Source: an uncultured Flammeovirgaceae bacterium (lineage in GTDB: Bacteria; Bacteroidota; Bacteroidia; Cytophagales; Cyclobacteriaceae). From it: a stretch of DNA of 64,000 nt. Location: positions 7,666 to 71,665 of the forward strand of contig CAKZYJ010000469.1 of assembly GCA_937884755.1 (NCBI GenBank), in the 5' to 3' direction. Under the pieces are notes generated by a model. That model saw nothing but the letters and a program-made list of their open reading frames with translations, had not been told where the DNA came from and ran no database searches. Below, one piece after another: positions 56,186-64,000 of the stretch; positions within the stretch are counted from its first letter, which is position 1; every line of letters starts with the position of its first letter. Both the position numbers and the translations under genes were made by a program.

Positions 56186-56543
56186 TAGCCGATGGGATAA
56201 GTAGCCAGCCATTTTTATTAAAACGAGCTACTTTAGAAATACCGGGCATAGCTGTGTATTATCCACCTGAGTATCTGTGCCGTGCTTCCTACTGCGCGGG
56301 ATAAACTTGTCCGATTCACCGCTCCTGCTGAGCTATTTCCGTTCGCCACCAGGCTTCTCGTTCCAGACTTTCACTTTAGGAGCGCTCTTCTCCTGGAATA
56401 CCTTTGTGAGGGTTAGGCAGTTTTGCTACTTTAAGTATTATTTAAGCTGAAAACACACCCTCACTAGCGGTACGTTGACAGTAATCAGCACTCTGGGGAA
56501 AGCCGAAAACCAATTTAGAGTAGGCGACTAATTAATATTAGAA

Positions 56544-58202: not shown

Positions 58203-58396
58203 GGTGCAATTAGTAAGAATAGTGGAAGGGCGAAAATACGCGCTTGGCTTAGGAAAAAATAACCCAGGTAAATCAGATTAGTACGTAGGTAAGCTATCAA
58301 AAACTATCCATCCAATTTGACCAGTAGATGGCCTAGGCGAGGAAAAACCGACCGGTTGGCTCCGGTAGCAGCACGTAAGAAAAAAGGCGGTACACT

Positions 58397-58575
58397 CATC
58401 TCCCGACGGGAGATGACCATTTCGAGTTCGACACCCCTAAATTCCGTCGGGAGATGGCCATTTCAGTGTCGAGATACCCCAAATACCGCCGGGAGATAAG
58501 TATTTTAGTTTTGAAATGCCCAAATACCGTTGGAATCTGAGCCTATCAGTTTTGATATAACGCAAAATCTGTTGG
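58397..58575. repeat. degenerate tandem repeat, about 41-42 bp period, 4-5 copies
   Basis: GGGAGAT at 58408, 58449 and 58491; AAATACCG at 58481 and 58522; decaying copy at about 58564. Confidence 0.65.
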
Positions 58576-58684
58576 TTTTTGCTCATGCTTCCTCGAGAAT
58601 CCTCACTGAACCTTATCTCTAGGAGAGAATGAAAGCAGTATAGTCGGATCTTTATTAAAAACATAGCAAAATTTGATGAGATAC

Positions 58685-58776
58685 CTCATCGCGAACGAAT
58701 GTGAAGCGATCTCCTAATTAGTAACTATAATGCTTCAATGGAGGAGACTGCTTCGTCATGCTTCCTCGCAGTGACG
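58685..58776. repeat. REP-like palindromic element (GTCA(T/C)TGCGA...GCA(A/G)TGAC type)
   Basis: GAAGCGATCTCC (58703-58714) pairs with GGAGACTGCTTC (58743-58754); outer arms are CTCATCGCGA and TCGCAGTGAC. Confidence 0.65.
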
Positions 58777-59018
58777 GCTAGTTTGATTATCTTCGTGTTT
58801 AGTTCAAAGACTTAATTGGTTAGAAGATGGCCGCCCCAAAACTTATTATACGTTTAATTCTACGGATATTTTTCACATTCCTATCGCCATATAGTATATT
58901 GAGCTGCCAATAAAATAATAGCCTTGAATAACAAGGCGAAATAGCTTTAAGATAAGTAATTAGCAGAATATCTACTATCAAACATCACCTATTGTCAATC
59001 AAATACAACCAATTTACA

Positions 59019-59066
59019 TACGGCAAATAAACGCACCGGTGCGTTTGTCCAGTTGTTGGCTGTAAT
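59019..59066. repeat. attC-like site with an internal perfect palindrome
   Basis: TACGGCAAAT, then the 18-bp palindrome AAACGCACCGGTGCGTTT, then the core GTTGTTGGCTGTAATG. Confidence 0.5.
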
Positions 59067-59086
59067 GCTAAACTTAATAATATTGA

Positions 59087-59575
59087 ATGAAATATAAGAT
59101 AGATGACTATAATGACATTGCTCTTAAGTGTGAAAGTCTAAACTGTACTGTTCCTGATACATTTTCATTTCTTCCTGAGAATTTCTCAAATGCAAATAAT
59201 ATTGATGAGTTCATCTATGCAGAATCTGTAGTCGAACTTAGGAAAATTTTTAAGCAGAATAATATTCAATTAACAAATCTTGAGTTGGGTACTCCAAAAT
59301 TTAGGGTAAGGAAGTACGCTGATTGGATTGGCCCTACGCTATTTATTAGCTTCTCGCTATTATCAGAAAATAATCATTTGATCTCTATTGGTTTAAATGT
59401 TTTGTCTAATTATGTAGGGGATTTCTTTAAAGGAAGTTTAGATGACAAGAAAGTTAAATTTGATATTGTTGTTGAAACAACCAAAGAGAAAGAATATAAG
59501 AGGATTAAATATGAAGGTGATCCTGAAGGGATAAAGCAATTAGATAAAATTATTAAATCATTAAATAAGAAATGA
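59087..59575 (+). CDS. AT-rich hypothetical protein (gene 1 of a cassette pair)
   Basis: 162-aa ORF with a central amphipathic segment (PTLFISFSLLSEN...SIGLNVLSNY..DFFKG); its stop overlaps the next start (ATGA). Confidence 0.7.
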   Translation: MKYKIDDYNDIALKCESLNCTVPDTFSFLPENFSNANNIDEFIYAESVVELRKIFKQNNIQLTNLELGTPKFRVRKYADWIGPTLFISFSLLSENNHLISIGLNVLSNYVGDFFKGSLDDKKVKFDIVVETTKEKEYKRIKYEGDPEGIKQLDKIIKSLNKK

Positions 59576-60300
59576 ATCTTTTTCCAAATTTAACAGGTAC
59601 ACTTAGTGACTTTAATAAAGTTGTTAATGAGTCTCAAAACAAGGCAATTTTTACTCGAGGTGTTGAAATACAAAAGGAAGAAGTTAAAGCATTGAGAAAC
59701 TATCTGAACGAACTGGAAAAAGTCAAAAGCGAGTCTATAAAAAGAGGTAATGAAAAAGACGCAAATCTTATATTATGTTTACAATTTAGTGTAAAAGCTA
59801 TTGAGAAAGAGCTGTTGATGCTGATAAACTTAAAAGAAGACAAAATGGATGAAGCTTGGGACTGCTTAGTCGAATCCCAAAATTTGATCCAAAATGTAAT
59901 TAAGAACCACCCTTTGGGGGGTGAATATTTATTGGGATATGCAAGTAGATTGAAAGGGTACGAAAAGCTTTTATTTCCCAAAATGATGTTTTCCAGTGCT
60001 GGAACAATAATAAAAAATAGCGAGTGTTCAATATGTAATGGAGAATACAGCGAATGTGATCATATTAAAGGCACATTTTACATGGGTAAAATGTGCCAAA
60101 GAATCATAAAAGAAATAGATGAACTTGAAGAAATATCAACAGTTGAAAATCCTGATGACAAAAGATGTCGAGCAAAAGCTATTATTGATAGATCTACGGA
60201 TGGAGTCGAGTATGAAACAGATTTACTCACGTTAAGAACAAAAACACTACAGCCAACAAAGCAGAACACCAAGCCTAGTAAATGTGAACCAGCACATTAA
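59572..60300 (+). CDS. AT-rich hypothetical protein: helical N-domain + CxxC-CxH-C Zn-finger/prohead-protease-like C-domain
   Basis: Segment SSAG.IIKNSECSICNGEYSECDHIKG.FY.GK.C.RII.E...LEEIS.VENP. Confidence 0.65.
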   Translation: MNLFPNLTGTLSDFNKVVNESQNKAIFTRGVEIQKEEVKALRNYLNELEKVKSESIKRGNEKDANLILCLQFSVKAIEKELLMLINLKEDKMDEAWDCLVESQNLIQNVIKNHPLGGEYLLGYASRLKGYEKLLFPKMMFSSAGTIIKNSECSICNGEYSECDHIKGTFYMGKMCQRIIKEIDELEEISTVENPDDKRCRAKAIIDRSTDGVEYETDLLTLRTKTLQPTKQNTKPSKCEPAH

Positions 60301-60380
60301 TTGTCCCAGGTCATGATATTGATATACGAAAGACAATATTCTTAACCCGGCCTATGGCCGTACAGGTCGTTGTGTATCAT
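60245..60380. repeat. attC-like site
   Basis: Inverse core CACTACAGCCAACAAA, internal hairpins (AATGTG/CACATT; CCAGGTCATGATATTG/CAATATTCTTAACCCGG), then core GTTGTGTATCAT at 60369. Confidence 0.5.
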
Positions 60381-60396
60381 TTGAATAATAAAATAG

Positions 60397-60849
60397 ATGA
60401 AAATCTTATCGGTTAGGGATACTCCTGAAATCGCAGCTACTGCCATCAAGTACTTTCAAAAGGTTTGGGATAGTGTTTGGCCCATAATTTACGAAGACTG
60501 CATAACCCACGCTATAGAATCAAAGAACCCGTTACCACAATGGTACTTGATGGAAAAGGATGACGAAATAATCGGCTGTGCCGGACTAGTCACCAATGAT
60601 TTTATCAGTAGAATGGACCTATACCCCTGGGTGTGTGCGGTATTTATTGACGAAAAGCATAGAGGTAACGCTTATGGTTCGTTGCTACTGGAAAAAGCAA
60701 AATCGGATGCCCTCGCAGCCGGGTTTGAGAATCTATACTTAAGCATGGAGCACATTGGATATTACGAAAAATATGGATTCAACTACGTCGGCCAGGGTTA
60801 TCATCCCTGGGGTGAAGAATCCAGAATATATGCGTTAGGTTTAAAATAG
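60397..60849 (+). CDS. GNAT family N-acetyltransferase
   Basis: Motifs IIGCAGLVTNDFISRMDLYPW..AVFIDEKHRGN.YG and YYEKYGF. Confidence 0.9.
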   Translation: MKILSVRDTPEIAATAIKYFQKVWDSVWPIIYEDCITHAIESKNPLPQWYLMEKDDEIIGCAGLVTNDFISRMDLYPWVCAVFIDEKHRGNAYGSLLLEKAKSDALAAGFENLYLSMEHIGYYEKYGFNYVGQGYHPWGEESRIYALGLK

Positions 60850-60866
60850 AAGTATAGCCAGCAGTT

Positions 60867-60941
60867 GAAACAAACAGAAGAAAGCTGGAACCCGTATCTT
60901 TAAGAGAAAATAAGCAGAAAGGATATGAAAACGTTAACTAT
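60867..60941 (+). repeat. direct repeat, copy 1 (copy 2 at 63929-64000)
   Basis: GAAACAAACAGAAGAAAG....AACCCGTATCTTTAAG..AATAAG.AGAA...TATGAAAACGTTAAC.AT occurs in both places. Confidence 0.9.
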
Positions 60942-61086
60942 AGAACTACCCGGTGAAACTAATGAGCAAGAAGCGAAGAGGATAGTTGTCACTGCATTTT
61001 TCGCTGTGGGTATATTAAGTTTGGGTCAGGCAGCATTATTTTTAAGCATCAGTAAGTGAGAGTTTCTGGAAACAGAAAAGATTTGA
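60925..61086 (+). pseudogene. UPF0175-family (putative antitoxin) pseudogene
   Basis: Reads MKTLTIELPGETNEQEAK...GILSLGQAA.FL.ISK*EFLETEKI*, with TGA at 61057-61059 where 'KREFL' is expected, and is truncated. Confidence 0.65.
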
Positions 61087-61096
61087 AGTTAGATCA

Positions 61097-61960
61097 ATGA
61101 GTAGTAAAGAAAGGTACATAAATCCATTTACCGACTTCGGCTTCAAAAAGCTATTTGGGACAGAATTCAACAAAGAGTTACTGATTGACTTTTTGAATCA
61201 GGTACTTGGTGATAGAGAACGAATACAGGATTTGACGTATTTGAATACTGAGCATCTAGGTAATACTGAATCGGACCGGAAAGCCATCTTCGATCTTTAT
61301 TGTGAGAATGAGCAAGGGGAGAAGTTCATCATAGAGCTACAGAATGTAAAGCAGCAGTACTTCAAAGATAGAAGTATCTTTTACTCTACATTCCCCATTC
61401 AGAGCCAAGCACCAAAAGGTACGGACTGGGACTACTATTTAAAAGCAGTGTATACGATTGGCATATTGAATTTTAGCTTTCCAGATAAGAGTGAGCAGGA
61501 GCGTTTTATGAGGGAGGTTCAGTTGATTGATAAAGAAACGGTGGAAGTCTTTTACGATAAGCTGACGTTTATTTATCTGGAAATGCCTAAATTCAAGAAA
61601 TCGGAAGATGAGTTACTTAGCCAGTTTGATAAATGGCTGTATGTATTGAAGAATCTGCATCGTTTACAGAACAGACCCGTTAAATTACAGGAGAAGGTAT
61701 TTGAAAAGCTGTTTTCAGAAGCCGAAATTGCCAAATTAAACAAAGAAGAAATGAGTGCATACGAAGAAAGCCTGAAAGTCTACCGAGATAATAAGAATAC
61801 GATGGATTACGCAATTGAAACGGCCAAAAAAGAAGGAATGGTAGAAGGCGCATCGAAGCGAGAAGTAGAAATTGCGAGAGAGTTGAAAAAGAACGGTGTT
61901 TCAATAGATCTGATTGAGAAAACAACAGGCTTAACCAAAGAGCAAATAGAAAAGTTATAG
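61097..61960 (+). CDS. Rpn family recombination-promoting nuclease / PD-(D/E)XK_2 putative transposase
   Basis: Motifs YINPFTDFGFKKLFG, FDLYC....GE.FIIELQ, YLEMPKF, DKWLY.LK and a 'EIAREL..GVS.D.I.K.TGL' tail. Confidence 0.93.
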   Translation: MSSKERYINPFTDFGFKKLFGTEFNKELLIDFLNQVLGDRERIQDLTYLNTEHLGNTESDRKAIFDLYCENEQGEKFIIELQNVKQQYFKDRSIFYSTFPIQSQAPKGTDWDYYLKAVYTIGILNFSFPDKSEQERFMREVQLIDKETVEVFYDKLTFIYLEMPKFKKSEDELLSQFDKWLYVLKNLHRLQNRPVKLQEKVFEKLFSEAEIAKLNKEEMSAYEESLKVYRDNKNTMDYAIETAKKEGMVEGASKREVEIARELKKNGVSIDLIEKTTGLTKEQIEKL

Positions 61961-61980
61961 AATAATATGGCAAAAATCCG

Positions 61981-62064
61981 TAGCCACAACGTATACACTC
62001 ACCATTAGTCGTTCTAAAAAAGTGATCGCTTAGTGTAACTTATTGAGGGTTGAGTTGTCTCGTA
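61981..62064. repeat. degenerate attC-like site
   Basis: GCCACAAC-GTATACACTCA ... TGAGGGTTGA-GTTGTCTC; the core at 62054 lies 37 bp before the next ATG. Confidence 0.3.
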
Positions 62065-63112: not shown

Positions 63113-63871
63113 ATGAAATTTGAGTTAATCAGTGTGCTAAGCACCATAGAGCGCCTGTATGATTTGCCAAGAACCAGGGAGCGATTCAATAAGTACCTCT
63201 ATCTACTGCAAGGTGATACGAAAAATGAAATGGTATTACCCATCGCCTCGTTCAACCCGATGGGAAAAGAACTGGCTACTGAGAAACTAAAACGATTGAT
63301 TCAGTTAAACGCCGAAGGTATCGCTGCCCAGGAGCTGGCCCGCATTAACAGTACCCTCGAAAAGCACCCCCATCGCACCATCAGGGTAGCCTTAAATCTG
63401 GCTGACGATGTGGAAGGCTCATGGTCTGAATACTACTCCACCGATTATAAAAGCAAGTTTGAAATAGCATCCTTAGTAAAGCGGAATTTTTGCACTCCTA
63501 TTTTCTGGACAAGAGAAAGTGTAACGGAAGAAATCATTGTTCAGCGAGTCAGAGAATACGTTTTCCGAACCCTGTTTTGGGTGCATCGCGGACCGCCCAA
63601 ATCGTTACAAGATTGTTTGGAACAAGAAATTTACGTGCAGGCAAACTCAACAGATGAGATTTCTTTACCGAAAAACCAGGATTTCGGTAACACGGAAAAG
63701 TTCTTATCAGAACACGCTGATTCAGAGGATTATAACGTAAAATTCAACTTCTTCTACGGAGACGAAGCATCAAAATCATTAGAATACGCCACCTATGGAA
63801 TTCTACCGTACGAAGGATTTGAATACGCAAAATTTCTGGCTAAACGAAAACAAGAGCCTTTGTCTGACTGA
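63113..63871 (+). CDS. hypothetical protein
   Basis: Coherent 252-aa ORF (ERF..YL.LLQG..K..M.LPI..FNPM.KE; FFYGDEA...L.Y...G). Confidence 0.65.
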   Translation: MKFELISVLSTIERLYDLPRTRERFNKYLYLLQGDTKNEMVLPIASFNPMGKELATEKLKRLIQLNAEGIAAQELARINSTLEKHPHRTIRVALNLADDVEGSWSEYYSTDYKSKFEIASLVKRNFCTPIFWTRESVTEEIIVQRVREYVFRTLFWVHRGPPKSLQDCLEQEIYVQANSTDEISLPKNQDFGNTEKFLSEHADSEDYNVKFNFFYGDEASKSLEYATYGILPYEGFEYAKFLAKRKQEPLSD

Positions 63872-63928: not shown

Positions 63929-64000
63929 GAAACAAACAGAAGAAAGGTAAAACCCGTATCTTTAAGAAATAAGTAGAAGAGCTATGAAAACGTTAACCAT
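63929..64000 (+). repeat. direct repeat, copy 2; includes the start (63984) of a second UPF0175-like gene running off the window
   Basis: Matches 60867-60941; ATGAAAACGTTAACCAT encodes MKTLT. Confidence 0.85.

What the first reader, a model, noticed from the sequence alone, without database searches (positions are those of the whole stretch)
59087..60300. Two-gene AT-rich cassette with a prohead-protease-like Zn-finger domain: candidate anti-phage system
Seen: two translationally coupled unknown genes, much more AT-rich than the host. Gene 2 ends in SSAG-IIKNSE-CSIC-x5-CDH-IKG-FY-GK-C-RII-E-x3-LEEIS-VENP. From memory, this resembles the C-terminal half of Caudovirales prohead proteases with a Zn insert (S.G...CSICG...C.H..G..Y.G..C......E.S.V..PA), here fused to a helical domain with no phage genes around. 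Known: cassette arrays and variable islands are enriched in defence genes. Inference: a co-opted capsid-maturation-like domain acting as a sensor or decoy, paired with a membrane-active or partner protein.
Basis: inference. Interest (0 to 1): 0.68.

Follow-up and report, generated by a model that had tools for sequence, protein, structure and literature searches.

The report
Two-gene cassette with borrowed phage-protease piece
This is a widespread, horizontally moving pair of uncharacterised genes, one of which carries a zinc-clamped piece copied from a phage head-maturation protease but lacks the protease's catalytic histidine half; it sits in a chromosomal slot that holds an immune-type gene in a sister species, so it is a credible but untested phage-defence candidate.

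Summary
ORF1 (59087-59575, 162 aa) and ORF2 (59572-60300, 242 aa) overlap by ATGA, and their GC is 0.28-0.35 against about 0.55 in the flanks.

ORF2 residues 141-203 are homologous to the segment after the catalytic serine in a phage family encoded between portal and major head genes (hhalign 98.3%, E 1.4e-14). That phage family is a divergent XkdF-type (Peptidase_S78_2) head protease. The serine (S142), four cysteines and H164 are 99-100% conserved in 228 relatives. The histidine-bearing N-terminal half of the protease is replaced by a five-helix bundle, so ORF2 is not a member of the protease family. No assemblin fold match was found.

ORF1 has a confident new alpha/beta fold, is soluble, and lies upstream of ORF2 in 37 of 37 testable loci. 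The pair occurs in more than 12 bacterial phyla, in haloarchaea, in a pleolipovirus and on plasmids. A distant branch is on about 200 enterobacterial plasmid records.

Here the pair is part of a 3.5-kb cargo (58557-62025) in a slot where the closest relative carries a DUF4062-nSTAND1-LRR gene. No known defence, toxin-antitoxin or integron signature matches. Defence is inferred from context only.

The parts
59087..59575 (+). Gene 1, 162 aa: the module-specific partner. Soluble, mildly acidic alpha/beta protein with no known family or fold relative.
   Evidence: ORF. No Pfam, NCBIfam, PADLOC or PHROG hit. AF2 pLDDT 90.4. No PDB fold or sequence relative. Homologs lie immediately upstream of gene 2 in 37/37 testable loci. 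Maximum 19-residue hydropathy is 1.09, so no TM segment.
59572..60300 (+). Gene 2, 242 aa: five-helix bundle plus a C-terminal Zn/beta domain.
   Evidence: ORF. Family of 88 and 344 clusters at E<=1e-30. AF2 pLDDT 94.1, helices 5-134, strands 140-225.
59572..59979 (+). Gene 2 residues 1-136: five-helix bundle that takes the place of the His-bearing half of the protease. Conserved residues N65, W96, L99, Q103, E131.
   Evidence: Only generic helical fold hits. Sub-threshold Pfam MComp1 hit, E 0.0095.
59992..60180 (+). Gene 2 residues 141-203: beta-hairpin with a Zn knuckle, homologous to the post-Ser segment of XkdF-type phage head proteases. Includes S142 (59995-59997), C152, C155, C162, H164 and C175 (60025-60096), and the EISTVENPDDK strand.
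   Evidence: hhalign A1 vs A4: 98.3%, E 1.4e-14. phrog_16951 hit in 30/30 members. Conservation.
58557..62025 (.). Low-GC variable cargo, 3,469 bp, in a chromosomal hotspot. It holds the pair, a GNAT gene, a 44-aa ORF and an Rpn/PDDEXK_2 gene. The closest relative has a DUF4062-nSTAND1-LRR gene here instead.
   Evidence: blastn breakpoints against G004. G004 ORF and domains. GC profile.
58394..58559 (+). Four tandem 42-nt palindrome-bearing repeats that abut the left breakpoint of the cargo. Conserved in sister genomes, so they belong to the flank.
60397..60849 (+). GNAT acetyltransferase, a co-cargo gene. It is not a conserved partner of the module.
   Evidence: Pfam PF00583, E 2.3e-13. Not recurrent among neighbours.
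61097..61960 (+). Rpn-family PD-(D/E)XK nuclease, a co-cargo gene. The family has reported antiphage and toxin activity.
   Evidence: PF12784, 267 bits. TIGR01784, 118.7 bits. PMC10400941. An ortholog sits at the same slot in G013.

Best explanation
The two genes form one horizontally mobile accessory module that is inherited, and probably translated, as a unit. Gene 2 joins a five-helix bundle to a domain exapted from an XkdF-type phage head-maturation protease. It keeps the strand that bears the former nucleophile (Ser-x-G), the Zn knuckle at the hairpin tip (four Cys) and the terminal E-x-S-x-V-x-x-P-A strand. It has lost the N-terminal half that carries the catalytic Asp-His, so it is most likely not a canonical protease.

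The most likely role is a conflict or defence module of mobile islands. In this reading the protease-derived hairpin is a recognition or mimicry surface for a phage head-assembly component (protease, scaffold or capsid protein), and gene 1, a new soluble alpha/beta protein, is the obligate partner as effector or gate.

Shown: the anatomy, the homology, strict pairing, patchy horizontal spread, and residence in a variable hotspot. Inferred: the direction of exaptation (phage to cell), loss of catalysis, the defence role, and the sensing or decoy mechanism.
For: Homology to the phage protease segment: hhalign 98.3%, E 1.4e-14. All 30 members hit phrog_16951. The A4 HMM hits 41 of 42 genomic homologs.

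The phage family lies between portal and major head genes and matches PF14550 at 23.9-26.1 bits against a cut-off of 24.

The His half is absent. The alignment covers only residues 141-203, there is no Pfam protease hit, and the helical domain has no invariant His.

Gene 1 is paired in 37/37 testable loci, with 4- or 8-nt overlaps and correlated divergence, r 0.75.

The spread covers more than 12 phyla plus Halorubrum, pleolipovirus Humcor2, which from established knowledge has no HK97-type head, Rhizobium and Haloterrigena plasmids, and a distant branch on 208 mostly conjugative enterobacterial plasmid records.

The module is absent from 60 relatives.

The same slot in the closest relative carries DUF4062-nSTAND1-LRR.

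Neighbours elsewhere include integrases, PIN, type I R-M, AbiEii-like, HEPN_AbiU2, FRG, YfbU and S-4TM genes. An Rpn gene is in the same cargo.
Against: There is no experimental evidence and no PADLOC hit. Neighbour enrichment is modest and was not tested against a matched control; most neighbours are housekeeping genes. Foldseek found no significant protease or any other fold match. The link from the phage family to XkdF is at threshold, and no link to canonical S78 was obtained. Strict conservation of S142 could mean retained catalysis with a new base, which would contradict 'non-catalytic'. Neither protein contains a recognisable effector domain such as a nuclease, pore, NADase or kinase.
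Confidence: 0.45

Rival explanations
1. The pair is a toxin-antitoxin or addiction-type stabilisation module of mobile elements with no dedicated phage sensing. One protein is toxic and the other neutralises it by direct binding.
For: Two small, overlapping, co-inherited genes. Carried by plasmids, a provirus and integrase-linked islands. PIN-type TA genes are frequent neighbours.
Against: There is no known toxin or antitoxin domain. There is no DNA-binding antitoxin-like domain. The two proteins diverge at similar rates (34% and 38% mean identity), unlike many TA pairs. The phage-protease origin of the domain has no obvious role in addiction.
Confidence: 0.15
2. Gene 2 is still an active serine peptidase with a new catalytic partner from the helical domain or the hairpin (for example E131, E/H187 or K197). 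Gene 1 is its substrate, pro-form or inhibitor. The output may or may not relate to phages.
For: S142 aligns with the protease nucleophile and is 100% conserved in 228 members. G144 is conserved in 87%. E131 is 96% and K197 is 94% conserved. Position 187, which should pair with S142 across the hairpin, is E or H in 96%.
Against: The canonical Asp-His half is missing. The predicted strand geometry puts H164 at the far, Zn-knuckle end of the hairpin from S142 (inference). K197 tolerates Arg. Conservation of the Ser may be structural.
Confidence: 0.12
3. Gene 2 is a zinc-finger nucleic-acid-binding regulator of island or virus genes, and gene 1 is its cofactor. The likeness to the protease reflects only a reusable Zn-hairpin module.
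For: The Cys4(+His) knuckle and the family-specific basic motif P-A-D-K-R-C-R (K197 and R200 at 94-96%) are absent from the phage proteases. The Humcor2 homolog lies in that virus's replication and accessory region (PMC7911831).
Against: The whole protein is acidic (pI 5.8, family median 5.5). There is no HTH or other DNA-binding domain. The shared segment includes the two protease strands, not only the Cys knuckle.
Confidence: 0.1
4. The pair is a decaying prophage remnant: a truncated prohead protease gene and a neighbouring gene with no present function.
For: The domain has a phage origin and the region has a foreign, low-GC composition.
Against: Both reading frames are intact and strongly conserved across more than 12 phyla and archaea, always as a pair and always without other phage genes. 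The architecture (helical bundle plus hairpin) is constant.
Confidence: 0.02

Closest known systems
XkdF-type phage head-maturation proteases with a Zn insert (Pfam PF14550 Peptidase_S78_2; PHROG phrog_16951, and more weakly phrog_18299 and phrog_9427)
   Same: The roughly 63-residue segment from the nucleophile strand (Ser-x-G), through the CSIC...CxH...Y.G..C zinc knuckle, to the terminal E-x-S-x-V-x-x-P-A strand. Identity is 32% and spacing is identical.
   Different: Gene 2 lacks the whole N-terminal half (DxxDRDxERF...DH) that contains the catalytic His, and it lacks the C-terminal scaffold-like tail. It has a five-helix bundle instead. It is not encoded in a head-morphogenesis module, and it is always paired with gene 1.
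Canonical HK97-family prohead protease (Pfam PF04586 Peptidase_S78), including this genome's own copies on other contigs
   Same: Only a short-motif likeness in the terminal strand (...DVGPVTFPAY against ...EISTVENPDDK) and in the Ser-x-G motif.
   Different: There is no statistical similarity (Pfam scan; hhalign probability <=0.15%). The canonical proteases have no Zn knuckle.
Unnamed 'small protein + SecC motif-containing protein' pair on IncHI2 and other enterobacterial plasmids, cargo of an ISNCY/IS1202-type element
   Same: It is a distant homolog of the whole module. The gene 2-like protein matches the family HMM at E 1.8e-20 over the helical and Zn-hairpin parts. The upstream small protein matches the gene 1 HMM colinearly at E 8.6e-4. 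The gene order is the same.
   Different: Identity is about 28%. It has an extra C-terminal SEC-C zinc motif, and its small partner is more hydrophobic. It too is uncharacterised.
Pleolipovirus Humcor2 genes HrrHm2_025 and HrrHm2_020 ('CxxC motif protein')
   Same: It is an orthologous pair with the same order and an overlap.
   Different: It is archaeal and virus-borne, with longer acidic tails. No function is assigned (PMC7911831).
Defence systems that sense phage head or packaging proteins (for example Avs/STAND NTPases, CapRel, Lit) - comparison from general knowledge
   Same: They reside in variable islands, and in the proposed reading the trigger is a phage morphogenesis protein.
   Different: No shared domains. 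Here the putative sensor would itself be derived from a phage morphogenesis enzyme, and no effector domain is recognisable.

Membership tests
XkdF-type prohead protease (PF14550 Peptidase_S78_2) | N-terminal half of the protease domain with the catalytic Asp-His motif | tested here: not met
   There is no PF14550 hit at E<=1. The hhalign match to the phage family covers only residues 141-203. The helical domain has no invariant His; H113 is conserved in only 72%.
XkdF-type prohead protease (PF14550 Peptidase_S78_2) | Nucleophile serine in a Ser-x-Gly strand | tested here: met
   S142-x-G144 aligns with the phage S136-x-G and lies 10 residues before CSIC in both. S142 is 100% conserved in 228 members.
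XkdF-type prohead protease (PF14550 Peptidase_S78_2) | Encoded in a head-morphogenesis module between portal and major capsid genes | tested here: not met
   There are no phage structural genes in the window's surroundings or in any of 37 paired loci. The phage relatives do sit between portal and capsid genes.
XkdF-type prohead protease (PF14550 Peptidase_S78_2) | Assemblin-like fold and proteolytic activity | tested here: inconclusive
   Foldseek with the full-length model found no significant match in PDB or BFVD. The best relevant hit was an 88-aa 'putative prohead protease' fragment (probability 0.95, E 0.56). Activity cannot be tested here.
HK97-family prohead protease (PF04586 Peptidase_S78) | Match to the family profile with the His and Ser motifs | tested here: not met
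   No Pfam hit. hhalign against this genome's own S78 proteins gives probability <=0.15%.
Catalogued anti-phage defence systems (PADLOC-DB v2.0.0) | HMM match of either protein to a catalogued defence protein | tested here: not met
   Zero families for both proteins at E<=1. Newer catalogues were not available.
Type II toxin-antitoxin module | A recognisable toxin domain and a DNA-binding or neutralising antitoxin domain | tested here: not met
   No Pfam or NCBIfam toxin or antitoxin family for either protein. Toxicity itself cannot be tested here.
Integron gene cassette | attC-type imperfect hairpin recombination sites between cassettes | tested here: not met
   No shared repeat between spacers. 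Spacer folding z-scores are -0.7 to -1.3. I did not search for an integron integrase.
Unnamed small-protein + SEC-C-protein cassette of enterobacterial plasmids | Homology of both proteins and the same gene order | tested here: met
   Gene 2 side: E 1.8e-20, 62 bits. Gene 1 side: E 8.6e-4, colinear. The order and close spacing are the same. The window's gene 2 lacks the SEC-C motif, so it belongs to a different branch.
Rugutis (lactococcal Abi-like system with an N-terminal SEC-C motif) | SEC-C motif at the N-terminus; sequence similarity | tested here: not met
   The window's gene 2 has no SEC-C motif. Lactococcus is not among the ten plasmid genera listed by tblastn; one further genus was not named. 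No direct sequence comparison was made. The system is described in PMC13064643.

The most novel reading that the evidence does not exclude
A widespread, previously unnamed two-gene immune system found in bacteria, archaea, an archaeal virus and plasmids uses a domesticated half of the phage's own head-maturation protease. It keeps the former nucleophile serine and the zinc-clamped hairpin. This piece would act as a molecular mimic that docks onto a head-assembly partner (protease, scaffold or capsid protein), either poisoning capsid maturation directly or releasing the gene 1 partner as effector. That would be defence by mimicry of a viral morphogenesis enzyme.
Probability: 0.18. Interest if true: 0.85.

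Novelty: new variant of a known kind. Interest (0 to 1): 0.62.

Why it matters
If the pair protects against phages, it would add a defence family whose recognition part is itself taken from a phage morphogenesis enzyme. That origin immediately suggests what it senses, namely head assembly, which is rare among newly found systems with no recognisable domains.

The family is large (344 clusters at 50% identity at E<=1e-30) and crosses the bacteria-archaea divide. It is carried by a membrane-vesicle virus that has no use for a head protease. A distant branch is on about 200 plasmid records from Enterobacter, Klebsiella, Citrobacter, E. coli and Salmonella, so a laboratory test in E. coli is straightforward.

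Independently of function, two findings stand on their own. One is a high-confidence new fold for gene 1. The other is a clear case of a half-enzyme exapted onto a helical bundle, with the former nucleophile still invariant.

Tried and rejected
1. I scanned both proteins against Pfam, NCBIfam, PADLOC and PHROGs. Only phrog_16951 matched, and there was no curated family.

2. Foldseek of both AF2 models against PDB, and of gene 2 against BFVD, gave no significant match. PDB sequence and profile searches for A1, A3 and A4 also found nothing.

3. I tested the idea that gene 1 supplies the missing N-terminal protease half as a split protease. hhalign A3 vs A4 gave probability 0.1%, and gene 1 has no invariant His or Asp. 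Rejected.

4. I looked for a link to canonical Peptidase_S78 using this genome's own S78 proteins. There was no signal, although the three-sequence profile was thin.

5. I considered H164 as a third catalytic residue by analogy with assemblin Ser-His-His. I set it aside because the predicted hairpin places H164 at the Zn-knuckle end, far from S142. This rests on inference, as no coordinates were available.

6. A membrane-active partner is not supported. Hydropathy maxima are 1.09 and 1.40, and gene 1 has a confident globular model.

8. There is no tRNA or known RNA family at the island borders, and sigma-70-like promoter counts are at chance level.

9. Rugutis (SEC-C motif) shows no detectable relation.

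10. Weak hits to MComp1 (ABC-3C), RicA/YmcA and peptide deformylase are all below significance, so I did not use them.

11. Literature searches for the module, for XkdF zinc inserts and for exapted head proteases found no description.
Full report
**1. The observation**

Two same-strand ORFs lie at 59087-59575 (162 aa) and 59572-60300 (242 aa). The stop of the first overlaps the start of the second in ATGA. GC falls to 0.28-0.35 over the pair, against 0.51-0.60 in the flanking genes. The quoted Cys/His-rich motif is present. The only error is that six residues, not five, separate CSIC from CDH.

**2. No curated family covers either protein**

Neither protein matches Pfam, NCBIfam or PADLOC. The only hit is phrog_16951, of unknown function, at E 1.8e-5 over gene 2 residues 144-197.

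**3. Gene 2**

- A word-index search found 88 relatives.
- A full profile search found 344 clusters (50% identity) at E<=1e-30, 1,091 at E<=1e-10 and 2,748 at E<=1e-3.
- In a 228-member alignment, W96, S142, C152, C155, C162, H164 and G172 are 100% conserved. N65, F135, P136, Y170, C175 and P194 are at least 98% conserved. E131, K197 and R200 are 94-96% conserved.
- AlphaFold2 with a 30-sequence alignment gives pLDDT 94.1 and pTM 0.87. The model has five helices (residues 5-134), then a long beta-hairpin (140-152 and 177-191) with the Cys-rich loop at its tip, then three short strands.
- Foldseek found nothing significant in PDB or BFVD. The top BFVD rows were an unnamed 388-aa viral protein and an 88-aa 'putative prohead protease' fragment, at E 0.4-0.6.

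**4. The prohead-protease link**

tblastn of the C-terminal 92 residues against phage genomes gave one clear hit and several weak ones.

- The clear hit is a 'CxxC motif protein' of Halorubrum pleolipovirus Humcor2 (E 1e-11).
- One weak hit lies in Acinetobacter phage ME3 gene 20, which sits between the portal and major capsid genes.
- Another weak hit lies in an unannotated gut phage, where the gene order is terminase, portal, this protein (phrog_16951, E 3.8e-94), then major head protein. That protein also gives a weak hit to phrog_18299, 'head maturation protease'.

Thirteen members of this phage family, taken from viral contigs (alignment A4), show invariant protease-type motifs. These are ...FDH... 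for the catalytic His...KEVSVGC... for the nucleophile Ser, and then CSICG...CxH...G..Y.G..C...NPTDAYEWSFVAVPAQ.

The N-terminal part of the phage family (residues 32-140) matches Pfam PF14550 (Peptidase_S78_2, XkdF). The score is 23.9 bits in hmmscan and 26.1 bits by the genome-search route, against a cut-off of 24. Three further members match the same region below threshold.

Profile-profile comparison of the gene 2 family with A4 gives probability 98.3% and E 1.4e-14 over gene 2 residues 141-203 and phage residues 135-200. S142-x-G144 falls on the phage Ser-x-Gly, and the Ser lies 10 residues before the first Cys in both families. All 30 tested family members hit phrog_16951 (best E 1.7e-10), and a few reach 'head maturation protease' PHROGs.

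The shared piece is the hairpin formed by the nucleophile strand and the last strand of the protease domain, with a zinc knuckle at its tip.

**5. What gene 2 is not**

- The His-bearing half of the protease is absent. The alignment stops at residue 141, there is no Pfam protease hit, and the helical domain has no invariant His.
- Canonical Peptidase_S78 shows no similarity, including against this genome's own S78 proteins on other contigs.
- Gene 2 is not in a head-morphogenesis module.

It therefore fails membership of the protease family while sharing ancestry with part of it. I infer that a phage protease gave rise to the cellular domain. The reason is that the two strands belong to the protease core and only the knuckle is an insert. 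This direction is not proven here.

The complete conservation of S142 is unexplained. It may be structural, or it may point to catalysis with a new base. Candidates are E131, K197, or position 187, which is E in 74% and H in 22% of members and should pair with S142 across the hairpin.

**6. Gene 1**

Sequence search found only four relatives. However, the gene upstream of every gene 2 homolog that I fetched proved homologous, including the archaeal virus copy at 17% identity.

- With HMMs, gene 1 lies immediately upstream of gene 2 in 37 of 37 loci that have a full-length gene 2 and upstream sequence.
- Overlaps of 4 or 8 nt dominate.
- Pairwise identities of the two genes correlate across 630 locus pairs (Pearson r 0.75), with similar mean divergence of 34% and 38%.
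- AlphaFold2 gives pLDDT 90.4 for an alpha/beta fold.
- There is no PDB relative by fold or sequence.
- The protein is soluble and near-neutral, with no transmembrane segment.
- It is not the missing protease half.

**7. Distribution**

- Forty-six genomic loci span Bacteroidota, several classes of Pseudomonadota, Planctomycetota, Verrucomicrobiota, Acidobacteriota, Chloroflexota, Bacillota, Actinomycetota, Gemmatimonadota, Poribacteria, Bipolaricaulota, Campylobacterota and Halorubrum.
- The pair is in the inducible pleolipovirus Humcor2 (PMC7911831). From established knowledge this virus type has no HK97-type capsid, so the module there must be cargo.
- It is on a Rhizobium conjugative plasmid and a Haloterrigena plasmid.
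- A distant branch is on 208 enterobacterial plasmid records, 180 of them conjugative, annotated 'SecC motif-containing protein'. It has about 28% identity, a family-HMM E of 1.8e-20, and an added C-terminal SEC-C motif. It again has a small upstream partner that matches the gene 1 HMM colinearly at E 8.6e-4.
- On an IncHI2 plasmid that branch lies between two ISNCY transposase genes, next to FRG and S-4TM genes.
- None of 60 relatives of the window's genome has the module.

**8. The local context**

Against the closest same-genus genome, homology ends at 58556 and resumes at 62026. The left breakpoint is the end of a 4 x 42-nt palindrome-bearing tandem repeat. The right one is 17 bp before the alcohol-dehydrogenase-like gene.

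The window's 3,469-bp cargo holds the pair, a GNAT gene, a 44-aa ORF and an Rpn-family PD-(D/E)XK nuclease gene. The Rpn family has reported antiphage activity (PMC10400941).

In the sister genome the slot is filled by one 1,107-aa gene with DUF4062 (51.7 bits), nSTAND1 (264 bits) and C-terminal leucine-rich repeats. That is an NLR-like conflict-system architecture. Three other same-genus genomes carry yet other low-GC cargo at this position.

**9. Contexts elsewhere**

- Precomputed Pfam contexts show integrases, serine recombinase, HEPN_AbiU2, FRG, YfbU, NspV, PDDEXK_4 and transposases next to the pair.
- Among 134 immediate neighbours from 36 loci, the recurrent families are Phage_integrase (4), PIN (4), type I R-M subunits (S 3, M 2, R 2), DUF4145 (2) and AbiEii-like AAA_21 (2). 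The rest are diverse housekeeping genes.
- This fits mobile or defence islands, but the signal is modest and I ran no matched control.
- No third gene is consistently linked.

**10. Alternatives tested**

There is no inter-cassette repeat, and the spacers fold like shuffled sequence.
- There is no tRNA or Rfam element at the borders.
- I found no paper that describes the module.
- Rugutis, a lactococcal system with a SEC-C motif, shows no detectable relation.

**11. Interpretation**

What is shown:
- A conserved two-gene unit that moves horizontally and sits in a variable hotspot.
- A gene 2 C-terminal hairpin that shares ancestry with the post-Ser segment of XkdF-type head proteases.

What is inferred:
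- The module serves in conflict with phages or other mobile elements.
- The protease-derived hairpin is the recognition or mimicry surface.
- Gene 1 is the partner that gates or executes the response.

I put 0.45 on the conflict or defence reading as a whole, and about 0.18 on the specific mimicry-of-head-assembly mechanism. The rivals are a plain addiction module, a still-active unusual peptidase, a zinc-finger regulator, a prophage remnant and an integron cassette. They are listed with their tests.

**12. Verdict**

Its structural recollection is substantially right at the level of sequence homology. Its functional reading is plausible but untested. This is an uncharacterised, widespread module with a clear and unusual evolutionary origin for one domain and a new predicted fold for the other protein. 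It can be tested directly in E. coli through the plasmid-borne branch.

Noticed in passing
window 58394-58559: Four tandem copies of a 42-nt unit, each containing a short palindrome (TCTCCCGACGGGAGA-like). The array ends exactly at the left breakpoint of the variable cargo and is conserved in two same-genus genomes. It may be a recombination hotspot or a protein-binding array.
   Followed up: partly
window 60867-60902 and 63929-63964; L100 6849-6899: A roughly 45-nt element (GAAACAAACAGAAGAAAG..AACCCGTATCTTTA) occurs only twice in the 8.35-Mb genome, both times in this window. One copy is inside the cargo, between the GNAT gene and the 44-aa ORF. The other is downstream of the 252-aa ORF. The sister genome has a single copy just upstream of an alpha/beta-hydrolase gene. 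It may be a recombination scar or a duplicated promoter region. Unexplained.
   Followed up: partly
L100 2346-5669 (same-genus genome G004, same slot): A 1,107-aa DUF4062-nSTAND1-LRR protein occupies the slot that holds the two-gene module in the window. This is an NLR-like conflict-system gene in a chromosomal hotspot.
   Followed up: yes
window 63113-63871: A 252-aa ORF with no Pfam match is absent from the sister genome, where the ADH-like gene is followed directly by the 45-nt element. This looks like a second small variable insertion.
   Followed up: no
window 61097-61960 and 60925-61059: An Rpn-family PD-(D/E)XK nuclease (PF12784, 267 bits) is preceded by a 44-aa ORF. An ortholog of the Rpn gene at the same slot in genome G013 is split by what appear to be inserted ORFs. 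I did not look for an intragenic antitoxin of the RpnS type.
   Followed up: partly
L020 2536-4314 (Acinetobacter phage vB_AbaM_ME3, gene ME3_20): A 593-aa 'hypothetical protein' between the portal and major capsid genes of a jumbo phage carries the same Zn-hairpin segment at about residues 155-228. It matches no Pfam or PHROG family and is probably an unannotated head-maturation protease.
   Followed up: partly
L083 10037-10279 (Acidobacteriaceae MAG): An 80-aa ORF consists of little more than the Zn-hairpin segment (family HMM E 1.5e-10), with no helical domain and no gene 1 partner. It is either a stand-alone version of the module piece or a fragment.
   Followed up: no
window 56493-56526: A sub-threshold Rfam match to the DUF805b RNA motif (21.4 bits against a gathering score of 35.6, E 0.019) lies just upstream of the FMN-reductase-like gene. 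It is probably chance.
   Followed up: no
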